DNA of 1,843 bases, taken from NCBI GenBank assembly GCA_000004985.1, contig GG739318.1; one strand, given 5' to 3'. Each line of letters begins with the position of its first letter. Position 1 is the stretch's first letter. The notes beneath the pieces were generated by a model that made no database searches, had not been told where the DNA came from, and saw nothing but the letters and a program-made list of their open reading frames with translations. Made by a program: the position numbers and the translations under genes. This DNA comes from Naegleria gruberi (taxonomy: Eukaryota). Shown in pieces: positions 1-1,821 of this stretch.

Positions 1-452
1 ACCATATTCACGAACAGTATCCTTACACTTTTCATGAATATCCTTATCACCAATAAAACCCAAAAAGTTATTAGTACCAAAGTTAATAACCTTGTCCTTC
101 TTTCCTTCAACAGTGAATTCAACATCGGCAACTGAAGTGACGACATATTCATGTTCCTTCATAGCATTAATTGTAGCATCAACATTGCTATCATCAGAGG
201 TTGGAACAAGTGGTACAGGTTCCCAATCTTCAATAATTTCATCTTCTTGTTTCTTGGAAAGTTTTTGTGGTGGCACAGCTGAACGTCTCTTGCTCATCAA
301 ATACCAAACAATTAAAACAATAATTGAAACATCAATCAATGAACGATATGGGTGATTTTGAAACTCTCCAACAAGAATATCGGCAAGTTTGTTAAAGATG
401 TTGACGTATCGAGACAATGATTCCATTGCCGATAATGTTGATGTTGCCTCTT
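1..452 (-). CDS. LCB1: Serine palmitoyltransferase subunit 1 (LCB1/SPTLC1 family), N-terminal 150 codons; partial, C-terminus beyond the window's left edge
   Basis: Reverse-complement translation from ATG at 452..450 reads MSTQEATSTLSAMESLSRYVNIFNKLADILVGEFQNHPYRSLIDVSIIVLIVWYLMSKRRSAVPPQKLSKKQEDEIIEDWEPVPLVPTSDDSNVDATINAMKEHEYVVTSVADVEFTVEGKKDKVINFGTNNFLGFIGDKDIHEKCKDTVREYG. The frame stays open to position 3; positions 1-2 are a partial codon. From memory, 'LSxxQExDxxIEDWEPxPLV' aligns with S. cerevisiae Lcb1 'LSPQEIDALIEDWEPEPLV' and human SPTLC1 'IEEWQPEPLV'. 'INFGTNNFLGF...T..EYG' aligns with 'NLASNNFLQL...TIKNYG' / 'INFASFNFLGLL'. The hydrophobic 'SLIDVSIIVLIVWYLM' matches the N-terminal membrane segment of Lcb1. 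Start context AAAAAAATGTCC (A-rich, A at -3, Ser second codon) is typical for yeast. The coding strand is purine-rich, as expected. Confidence 0.85.
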
Positions 453-600
453 GTGTGGACATTTTTTTCTTCTTGAGAATTTTAATATTAGGCGGATCAC
501 CCGCTAAACCCTTTTCGCAAATGCTGGCTTGACTTTTAACGATTTTTTGTTAATGGATTTTTGCGATGTGAGCGAAATGTAGAATTGCCCAAGCTCGACT
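453..600 (-). promoter_or_regulatory. Probable LCB1 5' leader / core promoter region. It is locally less AT-rich (~40% GC) than its surroundings, ends in an A7 tract abutting the ATG, and has no upstream ATG on the mRNA strand.
   Basis: There is no 'cat' on the plus strand between 453 and 600, so no uATG in the first ~150 nt of the leader. A run of seven T at 453-459 on the plus strand gives AAAAAAA immediately 5' of ATG on the minus strand. The true TSS and promoter boundaries cannot be set from sequence alone. Confidence 0.45.
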
Positions 601-621
601 TGTAAATTTTTTCGAAAGTAT

Positions 622-647
622 TTGAAATTTCACCAAGTCTTGAAATT
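622..647. repeat. 10-bp perfect palindrome TGAAATTTCA (623-632), with TTGAAATT repeated directly at 622-629 and 640-647
   Basis: Seen directly in the sequence. The core GAAnnTTC is a two-unit heat-shock-element-like arrangement. The third unit that a functional HSE needs is absent. Confidence 0.5.
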
Positions 648-764
648 AATAAAGTCAAATATTAAATGTATTGATTGTTGTAATATACTTGTTAGGCCTG
701 TTTGGAAGGGTCAAGAATAACACACGGAACCCTTTTTCCTTGATATCTCAATGATACGTTTCGG

Positions 765-792
765 TTCTTCAATAGCAAGCTGTATTGAAGAA
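765..792. repeat. Perfect 10-bp inverted repeat TTCTTCAATA-(8 nt: GCAAGCTG)-TATTGAAGAA
   Basis: Seen directly in the sequence: the reverse complement of 765-774 equals 783-792. Part of the spacer is also self-complementary (C776:G782, A777:T781). Confidence 0.6.
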
Positions 793-799
793 AAGTCAT

Positions 800-807
800 T
801 ATAAAAG
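800..807 (+). promoter_or_regulatory. Consensus TATA box TATAAAAG on the plus strand. Read on the minus strand it is CTTTTATA, so the orientation is ambiguous.
   Basis: Exact match to the TATAWAWR consensus. It lies ~350 bp from the LCB1 ATG and ~800 bp upstream of the coding-like segment at 1598. The perfect inverted repeat at 765-792 sits immediately upstream of it. Confidence 0.4.
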
Positions 808-1365
808 GACTCAACCTGACAAACCTTCTTTGTTTTTGTATCAAAGCATCTCGTTTCTTACTCACTACATAGTTGCCAGCAATACATTGTCCTGAATTTA
901 AGGGTTCATTCAGATCAAGAAGATCACATAATTGACAAGTATCATAATACGTAATGGATTCTATTGAACTTGTTCTGCAGGTGTTAAAGGATTAGCAAGA
1001 TTTGTTTCCGTAAAGAAGGACCTTCAAATTTTCTGTGAACTGAACTTGTAAAATGCTGTTGATTATACTGCCCTTTAGCATGAATTCTGCCTTTTTGGAG
1101 AAGGACTCATTTTCACTCTTTCAACAACATATGTTCCAATTCAGCAAGATATTAAATCAGCGAATAAGATTTGTGAAGAAATGAAGGATATTTTTGTTTC
1201 AGGAAGAGGAGATCGAATTTCTCCCAATAAAGAACTGGAATCATGGCCATCATATCCTGCAATATTCATTCATATAATACATGCATAGAATCATAGCCAC
1301 AAATTTGAGAGAGTTGCCTTTCAATCTTGATCTAAAATTGGAGATTTTGATTTCATGCCTTGATC

Positions 1366-1388
1366 AGATTCGGATTCAGATTCAGATA
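1366..1388. repeat. Short tandem hexamer repeat (RGATTC), ~3.8 copies: AGATTC GGATTC AGATTC AGATA
   Basis: Seen directly in the sequence. It falls inside the low-confidence ORF 1281..1601, where it would encode QIRIQIQII. Confidence 0.6.
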
Positions 1389-1597
1389 ATAACTAAGCTG
1401 GTACACCAAAGTCTAAAATCAAGATATCATCCAATTATCGCAGTTGACTATTCAACATGGCGATCAAGTAATAGTGTTGAAATTTGTGAGCTTTCCGAGA
1501 GAACTGCTCAGATCTTACATGTTTGCACATCAATTTTGAAACCAATAACAGAGCTTGACGGATCAGAAAAGCAATTATTATTCAAGATTATTATCGA

Positions 1598-1821
1598 ATG
1601 AATGGGCAAAGTATTGAGAGAAATAAGAGCAAGCTTACCAAGTACAAGAATGTTTTTAGAACAATCAAGAGCAAAGCAAAAGCAAATTGGAGGGTGAGAA
1701 TTCAAATGGTGAATCCACTGCAAGTGTAGTTGAAGAGATCCCTAGGAAGAAATCGAAGAAGGGTGATAATGATGTATCAAAGGAGAATGAAAAGAATAAC
1801 AGTACTTCTGATTCTGATTAA
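1598..1821 (+). CDS. Candidate small protein-coding segment, with the reading frame split across two overlapping frames. ATG 1598..TAG 1729 gives a 43-aa Lys-rich peptide. An open frame 1660..TAA 1821 gives NNQEQSKSKLEGENSNGESTASVVEEIPRKKSKKGDNDVSKENEKNNSTSDSD*. It is either a small gene with a short intron or frameshift, or it is non-coding.
   Basis: The plus strand is strongly purine-rich here, a coding-sense signature in yeasts. The frame ending at TAA 1819-1821 uses yeast-preferred codons (GGT, AAG, GAA, TCT, ACT, GTT) and ends in an acidic Ser/Asp tail typical of real C-termini. That frame has no in-frame ATG after its upstream stop (TAG 1657-1659). In-frame joining is possible by a 49-nt intron (GT 1611 ... 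TTTTTAG 1659) from ATG 1602, which would give MGK|NNQEQ... (56 aa). A -1 shift from the ATG-1598 frame would also join them. No homolog recognised. Confidence 0.3.

What the first reader, a model, noticed from the sequence alone, without database searches (positions are those of the whole stretch)
1598..1821. Coding-like purine-rich segment split between two reading frames, consistent with a small intron-containing or frameshifted gene
The frame ending at TAA 1819-1821 (…EGENSNGESTASVVEEIPRKKSKKGDNDVSKENEKNNSTSDSD*) looks like a genuine hydrophilic C-terminus with good yeast codons, but it lacks a start codon. The only ATGs (1598, 1602) lie in the other two frames. Two joining models are in-frame. 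(a) A 49-nt intron, GTATTG(1611)…TTTTTAG(1659), fuses MGK to NNQEQSK… to give a 56-aa protein. However, the 5' splice site lacks the conserved G5 and I see no CTRAY branch site. (b) A -1 shift in the 1660-1726 overlap fuses the 43-aa Lys-rich frame to the acidic tail (~75 aa). Either would be a small, highly charged protein that ORF-length filters miss. Alternatively it is a decayed pseudogene.
Basis: inference. Interest (0 to 1): 0.55.

Follow-up and report, generated by a model that had tools for sequence, protein, structure and literature searches.

The report
Frameshifted pseudogene tail in Naegleria scaffold
The coding-like segment is the broken tail of a decayed copy of a multi-copy, Naegleria-specific gene of unknown function; it is not a small intron-containing gene, and it is ordinary.

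Summary

- **Source.** The window is not yeast. It is a whole 1843-bp unplaced scaffold of Naegleria gruberi.
- **What 1598-1821 is.** It is the 3' end of an unannotated, degenerate copy of a Naegleria gene family (NAEGRDRAFT_54818, NAEGRDRAFT_71001 and a third N. gruberi protein, P0006; one metagenome relative).
- **Why three frames.** In the paralogs one uninterrupted frame reads ...KIIFECMGKSIERNKSKLTKYKNVFRTIKSKAKAKLEGENSNSES.... In the window this path runs frame 3, then 2, then 1.
- **The lesions.** One A is missing from an A-run at 1608-1610 and another at 1684-1686. TGA (1599-1601) stands where the closest paralog has Cys.
- **Repair test.** Three single-base edits restore a 115-codon frame that is 85% identical to NAEGRDRAFT_54818.
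- **Intron model.** The proposed 49-nt intron is rejected, because it encodes residues identical to the paralog.
- **Frame-shift model.** It marks damage, not a small gene.
- **Further decay upstream.** There is a seven-codon out-of-frame deletion, a likely deletion of about 64 codons and a tentative TAA. Next to these lies a fragment of a second gene on the minus strand that also carries a stop and a frameshift.

Sequencing error in a low-coverage scaffold remains a minor rival for the two A-run indels. Low interest.

The parts
1..462 (-). Context: the N-terminal 154 codons of serine palmitoyltransferase subunit 1 (LCB1/SPT1). The frame is intact and runs off the window start. Annotated as N. 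gruberi EFC35363.1 'predicted protein, partial'.
   Evidence: 100% identity to P0001, whose only contig is 1843 bp; accessions. E = 5.2e-10 to yeast SPT1 (8c82_B), and hits to plant and human LCB1/SPTLC1.
1179..1365 (-). Degenerate fragment of a second gene ('X'), homologous to the C-terminal end of the minus-strand gene at L001 2377-3195. It carries an in-frame stop at 1266-1268 and a frameshift near 1323.
   Evidence: 78% nucleotide identity over 189 bases (E = 1.3e-38); the best tblastx frames are on the minus strand; frameshift-aware alignment.
1364..1405 (+). Tentative start of the Y-family pseudogene. Frame 2 reads SDSDSDSDNN*AGT against paralog DSDSDSDNDQAGS (P0002 residues 17-30). TAA at 1394-1396 stands where the paralog has Gln. 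The roughly 64 paralog residues that follow (31-94) have no counterpart.
   Evidence: tblastn E = 3e-4, but the sequence is low-complexity, so this is tentative. Reading.
1417..1473 (+). Y pseudogene, frame 1: NQDIIQLSQLTIQHGDQVI, matching P0002 residues 95-113.
1474..1475 (+). Frame break from frame 1 to frame 3. Seven paralog residues, LTHKQRA, are missing; this motif is conserved as LTHKEIA and LTHKERA in other family members. The deletion is out of frame.
1476..1610 (+). Y pseudogene, frame 3: VEICELSERTAQILHVCTSILKPITELDGSEKQLLFKIIIE*MGK, matching P0002 residues 114-166.
   Evidence: phmmer E = 5.9e-12, 88% identity over query 65-106.
1599..1601 (+). In-frame TGA where P0002 has Cys (ECMGK); P0004 and P0006 have Ala (DAMGW).
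1608..1610 (+). AAA run one base too short. This shifts the frame from 3 to 2. Adding one A restores MGK-S-IERNK as in the paralog.
1613..1681 (+). Y pseudogene, frame 2: IERNKSKLTKYKNVFRTIKSKAK, 23 of 23 identical to P0002 residues 168-190. It contains nearly all of the proposed 'intron' (1611-1659).
1684..1686 (+). AAA run one base too short. This shifts the frame from 2 to 1. Adding one A restores KAKAKLEGEN as in the paralog.
1684..1821 (+). Y pseudogene, frame 1: the Lys/Glu-rich tail KLEGENSNGEST...NEKNNSTSDSD, ending at TAA 1819-1821. It matches P0002 residues 192-231 at 30 of 40 residues. In the paralog this region is predicted to be disordered.
   Evidence: pLDDT below 50 for P0002 residues 196-242.

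Best explanation
Window 1364-1821 (+) is a non-functional, decayed copy of a multi-copy, Naegleria-restricted gene of unknown function (the NAEGRDRAFT_54818 / NAEGRDRAFT_71001 family, here called Y). The flagged segment, 1598-1821, is its 3' end.

Shown:
- The ancestral single reading frame is now spread over frames 3, 2 and 1.
- The causes are two one-base contractions of A-runs (1608-1610 and 1684-1686) and an in-frame TGA at 1599-1601.
- Upstream, the copy also carries an out-of-frame seven-codon deletion.
- It abuts a fragment of a second gene (X) on the opposite strand that is also broken.

Tentative (rests on a low-complexity match):
- A deletion of about 64 codons and a TAA at 1394-1396.

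Inferred:
- The lesions are real mutations, through slippage in short A-runs and deletions, in a dead duplicate. They are not read errors.
- X and Y travel together as one repeat unit, possibly a DNA transposon, of which this scaffold holds an internally deleted remnant.
- No protein is made from 1598-1821. Its coding-like, purine-rich look is inherited from the Lys/Glu-rich disordered tail of the parent protein.
For: - **Source and family.** Searches identify the N. gruberi scaffold. One search gives E = 4.6e-36 to NAEGRDRAFT_54818. add members P0004, P0005 and P0006, and nothing outside Naegleria-like sequence.
- **Frame path.** One search gives 1417-1473 in frame 1, 1476-1610 in frame 3, 1613-1681 in frame 2 and 1684-1803 in frame 1, colinear with P0002 residues 95-231.
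- **Continuity in paralogs.** Searches show that P0002, P0004 and P0006 each read straight through one or both break points.
- **Repair.**: three single-base edits give a continuous 115-aa frame; it is 85% identical to P0002.
- The LTHKQRA deletion, the stops, and the neighbouring X fragment with its own stop and frameshift are lesions of other kinds.
- **Contrast within the scaffold.** About seven disabling lesions lie in 1179-1821. None lie in the 462 bases of LCB1 on the same scaffold.
- **Annotation.** The one N. gruberi protein that the searches matched at 100% identity on this scaffold is the LCB1 fragment. Exact-product look-ups for three ORFs of this region found no called gene.
- **State of the family.** The other family members are themselves short or partial models (101, 115 and 242 aa). 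The metagenome copy L001 also looks frame-broken. This is typical of a decaying repeat family.
Against: - No read-level data could be inspected. The scaffold is tiny, so it may rest on few reads, and the two key indels are single-base changes in homopolymers near the scaffold end. That is the classic signature of base-calling error.
- The genomic DNA of the paralogs could not be fetched. The 'missing A' is therefore inferred from protein alignment, and Ka/Ks could not be computed.
- The 64-codon deletion and the TAA at 1394-1396 rest on a low-complexity SD-repeat match.
- The idea that X and Y form one mobile unit rests on a single other locus (L001).
Confidence: 0.8

Rival explanations
1. The gene is intact in the organism. 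The frame breaks are sequencing or assembly errors in a low-coverage 1.8-kb scaffold.
For: Both shifts inside the flagged interval are losses of one A from short A-runs, and they lie within about 240 bases of the scaffold end. The scaffold is only 1843 bp.
Against: TGA for Cys, the out-of-frame seven-codon deletion at 1474, the tentative 64-codon gap and the broken X fragment at 1179-1365 are not homopolymer miscalls. The LCB1 frame is clean right up to the other scaffold end. Even after the three repairs the copy lacks most of the parent protein.
Confidence: 0.12
2. A small gene with a 49-nt intron (1611-1659) encodes a 56-aa protein, MGK + NNQEQSK....
For: GT at 1611 and AG at 1658-1659 exist, and the join is in frame.
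Against: The 'intron' encodes IERNKSKLTKYKNVFR in frame 2, within a 23-of-23 identical match to the paralog, and this stretch is conserved in P0004 and P0006. The 'exon 1' residues MGK belong to the ancestral frame 3, which continues upstream for 40 or more conserved codons.
Confidence: 0.01
3. The two shifts are decoded by programmed ribosomal frameshifting or transcriptional slippage, so a full-length tail is still made.
For: Both shifts sit in A-runs.
Against: Paralogs have a plain continuous frame at both sites, so the shift is not a conserved feature. The runs are only three A long; from established knowledge, transcriptional slippage needs much longer runs. An in-frame TGA sits 7 bases upstream of the first site, and the upstream part of the gene is deleted or shifted.
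Confidence: 0.01
4. The region is non-coding DNA that only looks coding by composition.
For: No Pfam domain in any frame. No Rfam or tRNA hit.
Against: Highly significant protein-level homology, colinear over about 135 residues.
Confidence: 0.02

Closest known systems
N. gruberi hypothetical protein NAEGRDRAFT_54818 (XP_002668383.1 / EFC35639.1, partial, 242 aa)
   Same: It is colinear with window 1417-1803. The repaired window peptide is 85% identical. It has the same Lys-rich segment followed by an acidic, disordered tail.
   Different: The paralog has one open frame. The window copy has two one-base deletions, a TGA, a seven-codon out-of-frame deletion and probably a 64-codon deletion. The tail ends differ (NNSTSDSD* against NNSDAIRIGASGFN).
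N. gruberi NAEGRDRAFT_71001 (XP_002673936.1, D2VPV6, 101 aa), N. gruberi predicted protein P0006 (115 aa) and P0005 on metagenome contig L001
   Same: They share the conserved core (IVLTHK..ICEL.EKT.QI.HVCS ... LLFKIIF..MG..I...K.KL.KY..VFRTI) and a Lys-rich tail that turns acidic.
   Different: They are 43-59% identical to NAEGRDRAFT_54818 and belong to a different subfamily. All are short or fragmentary models.
Duplicated (non-processed) pseudogenes and internally deleted remnants of DNA-transposon-like repeat units
   Same: Nonsense and frameshift lesions, internal deletions, and fragments of two neighbouring genes kept in their original relative orientation (X on the minus strand, Y on the plus strand, as in L001). 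The copy sits on a small unplaced scaffold where the assembly broke.
   Different: No terminal inverted repeats, target-site duplication or recognised transposase domain were found. Mobility is not shown.

Membership tests
NAEGRDRAFT_54818/71001 protein family (Y) | Significant, colinear sequence similarity to family members | tested here: met
   E = 4.6e-36; E = 5.9e-12 and 7.5e-4.
NAEGRDRAFT_54818/71001 protein family (Y) | A single uninterrupted reading frame, i.e. a functional member | tested here: not met
   four frame changes and an in-frame TGA; three edits are needed to reopen even the last 115 codons.
   GT at 1611-1612, AG at 1658-1659; the join MGK|NNQ is in frame.
   the interval encodes IERNKSKLTKYKNVFR, identical to P0002 and conserved in P0004 and P0006.
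   No RNA-seq access.
Programmed frameshift site | The frame change is conserved in homologs | tested here: not met
   homologs are in one frame at both sites.
TNP2/CACTA-like (CMC) or KDZ DDE transposase, as the identity of neighbouring gene X | Match to a transposase profile (for example Pfam Transposase_21) | tested here: not met
   no Pfam family even at E up to 10; no PDB relative.
TNP2/CACTA-like (CMC) or KDZ DDE transposase, as the identity of neighbouring gene X | Catalytic-core motifs (D..PF block, CxxC, D(2)H) | tested here: inconclusive
   Read by eye in the L001 X protein (FFDSVSPF..., FCHICLIKG, YDSMHVLYEGV) and in window 1179-1310 (YDSMHVLYE*). The comparison is with motifs recalled from memory, so it is a lead only.
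DNA transposon remnant (X-Y unit) | Terminal inverted repeats and target-site duplication | tested here: not met
   only short, imperfect inverted repeats (18-22 nt, 73-85% complementary), none flanking 1152-1821. The 3' end may lie beyond the scaffold.
Serine palmitoyltransferase subunit 1 (context gene, 1-462 minus strand) | Sequence similarity to solved SPT1/LCB1 chains over the N-terminal helix and the start of the aminotransferase fold | tested here: met
   E = 5.2e-10 (8c82_B), 8.5e-10 (7yjk_A) and 4.9e-6 (6m4n_A).

The most novel reading that the evidence does not exclude
X and Y together are the two genes of an undescribed Naegleria DNA-transposon family: a highly divergent DDE transposase plus a novel accessory protein with a coiled coil, a small helical domain and a disordered tail. 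The scaffold holds an internally deleted, dead copy inserted upstream of LCB1. The flagged segment would then be the tail of a new kind of transposon accessory protein.
Probability: 0.25. Interest if true: 0.3.

Novelty: new member of a known kind. Interest (0 to 1): 0.1.

Why it matters
It matters little beyond annotation hygiene.
- It shows that this segment should not be called as a small ORF or as an intron-containing gene.
- It places an unannotated pseudogene, and a second gene fragment, on N. gruberi scaffold EFC35363.1-bearing DNA. Their presence fits with the assembly having broken here, next to the LCB1 5' end, if they are repeats.
- It flags a small lineage-specific family without any domain assignment, possibly transposon-borne, that a Naegleria repeat curator might want to define properly.

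Tried and rejected
- **Pfam** on every frame piece, on the repaired peptide and on the paralogs. Only sub-threshold, low-complexity hits came back (DUF2433, E = 0.004-0.018, well below the cut-off).
- **Exhaustive HMMER search** with the 106-aa ORF. It gave one spurious repeat-driven hit (P0003, 12 copies of a short motif), which I discarded.
- **Metagenome scans** for more copies. Two scans found nothing; one alignment was too divergent to use.
- **Exact-product look-ups.** Look-ups for P0001, P0002, P0004 and P0006 were aimed at paralog DNA. Look-ups for three window ORFs spanning the lesions were aimed at independent sequence support. None are on record.
- **RNA genes.** Rfam and tRNA scans found nothing meaningful.
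- **Transposase identity of X.** Pfam and PDB were negative. Literature searches gave no Naegleria element matching it.
- **Weak alignment of 1290-1415.** The frameshift-aware alignment weakly aligned this stretch (frame 3) to the paralog's coiled coil. I rejected it, because most of that stretch (up to 1366) is 78% identical at DNA level to the antisense strand of gene X.
- **Alternative genetic codes and yeast origin.** I considered both early and dropped them once the source was identified.

Full report
**Observation**

Every coordinate in the finding is correct.
- ATG lies at 1598 (frame 2) and 1602 (frame 3).
- GTATTG starts at 1611 and TTTTTAG ends at 1659.
- Frame 1 is open from 1660 to TAA 1819-1821 and reads NNQEQSKSKLEGENSNGESTASVVEEIPRKKSKKGDNDVSKENEKNNSTSDSD.
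- The interval is 67% purine, against 51% for the whole window.

**Where the window comes from**

The minus strand of 1-462 is an intact 154-codon frame. It is 100% identical to N. gruberi EFC35363.1/XP_002668107.1 ('predicted protein, partial'), whose only contig is 1843 bp long. The window is therefore a whole small unplaced scaffold of the Naegleria gruberi assembly, not yeast. That frame is the N-terminus of serine palmitoyltransferase subunit 1: E = 5.2e-10 to yeast SPT1 8c82_B, with further hits to plant and human LCB1/SPTLC1.

**What the flagged segment is**

I concatenated the open stretches of all three plus-strand frames and searched them. The search hit one protein, N. gruberi NAEGRDRAFT_54818 (P0002, 242 aa, partial), at E = 4.6e-36. 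An exhaustive HMMER search with the 106-aa ORF (1281-1598) found the same protein (E = 5.9e-12, 88% identity) and NAEGRDRAFT_71001 (P0004, E = 7.5e-4). It also returned a spurious repeat-driven hit, which I discarded. A profile search added P0006 (N. gruberi, 115 aa) and P0005 (a metagenome contig, L001). None of these has a Pfam domain.

The paralog reads in one frame...QDIFQLSDLTIQHGDQVIVLTHKQRAEICELSEKTAQILHVCSSILKKPITELDGSEKQLLFKIIFECMGKSIERNKSKLTKYKNVFRTIKSKAKAKLEGENSNSESTVNEFEEIPKKKSKKGDNESKKKNEKNNS....

A frameshift-aware protein-to-DNA alignment places this path on the window as follows.

| Window | Frame | P0002 residues |
|---|---|---|
| 1417-1473 | 1 | 95-113 |
| 1476-1610 | 3 | 114-166 |
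| 1613-1681 | 2 | 168-190 (23 of 23 identical) |
| 1684-1803 | 1 | 192-231 (30 of 40 identical) |

Restricted to 1598-1821, this alignment scores 269. Forty shuffles of the same bases gave 45 +/- 7, with a maximum of 62.

**The lesions inside the finding**

- **TGA at 1599-1601.** It stands where P0002 has Cys (ECMGK); P0004 and P0006 have Ala there.
- **First shift.** The window reads ggc aaa gta ttg. With one more A it reads ggc aaa agt att gag aga aat aag, which is G K S I E R N K, exactly as in the paralog. The A-run at 1608-1610 is therefore one base short.
- **Second shift.** The window reads gca aaa gca aat tgg. With one more A it reads gca aaa gca aaa ttg gag ggt gag aat, which is A K A K L E G E N. 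The A-run at 1684-1686 is therefore one base short.

Making these three single-base edits gives a continuous 115-codon frame ending at TAA 1819-1821. That frame is 85% identical to P0002. P0004 reads straight through the first site (IIFDAMGWKISKHKNKLSKY). P0006 reads through both sites (...KYRGVFRTIASNLKKKKGAKQNES...). The continuity is therefore a property of the family, not an artefact of one gene model.

- **Model (a).** The 49-nt 'intron' (1611-1659) encodes, in frame 2, residues identical to the paralog. It is coding-derived sequence, so model (a) is rejected.
- **Model (b).** However, ATG 1598 is not a start. The first four codons of that 43-aa ORF (MNGQ) are out of the ancestral frame, which enters from frame 3 upstream.
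- **Overall.** The segment is the tail of a larger, broken gene.

**Decay outside the finding**

- At 1474-1475 the frame changes from 1 to 3, and the conserved LTHKQRA (LTHKEIA and LTHKERA in other members) is missing. This is an out-of-frame deletion, not a homopolymer slip.
- One Lys codon of P0002 (K143) is also absent, in frame.
- Upstream, 1364-1405 (frame 2) reads SDSDSDSDNN*AGT against P0002 DSDSDSDNDQAGS, with TAA at 1394-1396 where the paralog has Gln. The next 64 or so paralog residues, a predicted coiled coil, have no counterpart. This part rests on a low-complexity match (E = 3e-4) and is tentative.

**The neighbouring fragment**

Window 1180-1366 is 78% identical at DNA level to L001 2387-2575 (E = 1.3e-38). 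The protein-level match is on the minus strand, to the C-terminal end of the L001 gene at 2377-3195. The window reads DQGMKSKSPILDQD / ...SQICGYDSMHVLYE*ILQDMMAMIPVLYWEKFDLLFLKQKYPSF, with a stop at 1266-1268 and a frameshift near 1323.

In L001 this gene (X, minus strand) lies head to head with the Y-family gene (plus strand, 3977-5208). The window keeps the same relative orientation, but the tail of X abuts the middle of Y at about 1364-1366. A deletion of roughly 2.5 kb from an L001-like X-Y unit would produce this. That step is an inference from a single comparison locus.

The 106-aa ORF at 1281-1601, the longest in this part of the window, is therefore a chimera. It is made of antisense X, then out-of-frame Y, then 41 in-frame Y codons.

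**Pseudogene or sequence error?**

I could not inspect reads. Exact-product look-ups for three ORFs spanning the lesions found no independent contig, and paralog DNA was not retrievable.

For sequence error:
- The two A-run indels are the kind of change base-callers make.
- They lie near the end of a very small scaffold.

For a real pseudogene:
- About seven disabling lesions of several kinds (stops, an out-of-frame multi-codon deletion, large deletions) lie in 1179-1821, in two different gene fragments.
- The LCB1 frame is clean right up to the opposite scaffold end.
- Even a fully 'repaired' tail lacks most of the parent protein.
- The family's other members are short or partial models, and the L001 copy also looks frame-broken. 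In L001, frame 2 ends ...SNDSNHLQILHF* while frame 1 continues ANSAFLKHYNDL..., against P0002 DDSNILLNNPAFLKHYNEI.

I put roughly 0.8 on real decay and roughly 0.12 on error.

**What the parent family does**

This is unknown. AlphaFold2 of P0002, from a two-sequence alignment with mean pLDDT 58, predicts the following:
- a long helix at 51-94;
- a beta-hairpin at 104-115;
- helices at 117-195, with pLDDT of about 70-83 up to about residue 160;
- a disordered tail at 196-242.

Gene X has no Pfam or PDB match. By eye, its FFDSVSPF..., FCHICLIKG and YDSMHVLYEGV blocks resemble the D..PF, CxxC and D(2)H blocks of CACTA/TNP2- or KDZ-type DDE transposases. I am recalling those motifs from memory; this is a lead, not a test. 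Repeats make up about 5.1% of the N. gruberi genome (PMC11589745). Kolobok elements are reported from Naegleria (PMC9587614). I found no description of an element matching X-Y.

**Other checks**

There is no tRNA, and Rfam gives only sub-threshold matches (E = 0.78). The repeats found in the window are short and imperfect.

**Verdict**

The explanation is a frame-disrupted, decayed copy of a lineage-specific multi-copy gene on an unplaced N. gruberi scaffold. This is ordinary and of low interest. The only mildly novel angle is that X and Y may define an undescribed Naegleria transposon family.

Noticed in passing
window 1-462 (-): Intact N-terminus (154 codons, running off the scaffold end) of serine palmitoyltransferase subunit 1 (LCB1/SPT1). 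The deposited model EFC35363.1 stops at residue 145, although the frame stays open to window base 1. The rest of the gene must lie on another scaffold.
   Followed up: partly
window 1179-1365 (-): Degenerate fragment, with a stop at 1266-1268 and a frameshift near 1323, of a second gene. It is 78% identical at DNA level to metagenome contig L001 2387-2575 and contains a YDSMHVLYE motif reminiscent of the D(2)H block of DDE transposases. Pfam and PDB searches were negative.
   Followed up: partly
window 1281-1601 (+): The longest ORF in the region (106 aa, ATG start) is a chimera: antisense of the X fragment, then out-of-frame sequence, then 41 genuine Y-family codons. It would mislead ORF-length filters.
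   Followed up: yes
L001 3977-5519 (+): The Y-family copy on the ENA metagenome contig (ERZ929261) also looks broken. The 320-aa N-terminal ORF (frame 2) and the 90-aa FLKHYNDL... ORF (frame 1) are separated by a frameshift. After ...HVCSTYFDG* an AT-rich stretch of about 110 nt (an intron or decay) precedes a degenerate ERKLIFGKW* remnant.
   Followed up: partly
L001 1237-2391 (+) and 2-517 (+): Neighbours of the X-Y pair on L001 are a BTB/POZ-domain protein (Pfam E = 2.5e-5) and a protein with a weak HNH-endonuclease-like match (E = 0.03). Homology with the window stops at L001 2387, right at the end of X.
   Followed up: no
window 1364-1396 (+) / same bases (-): The (GATTCA/GATTCG)n stretch reads SDSDSDSD on the plus strand, matching the SD-repeat of NAEGRDRAFT_54818, and SESESES on the minus strand. 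It sits exactly at the junction between the X and Y fragments, so the breakpoint cannot be placed to the base.
   Followed up: partly
window 463-1151: About 690 bases lie between the LCB1 start codon and the end of the X fragment. They have no homology to L001 or to any protein found, and only short ORFs in all six frames. This is presumably the LCB1 promoter and intergenic DNA.
   Followed up: no
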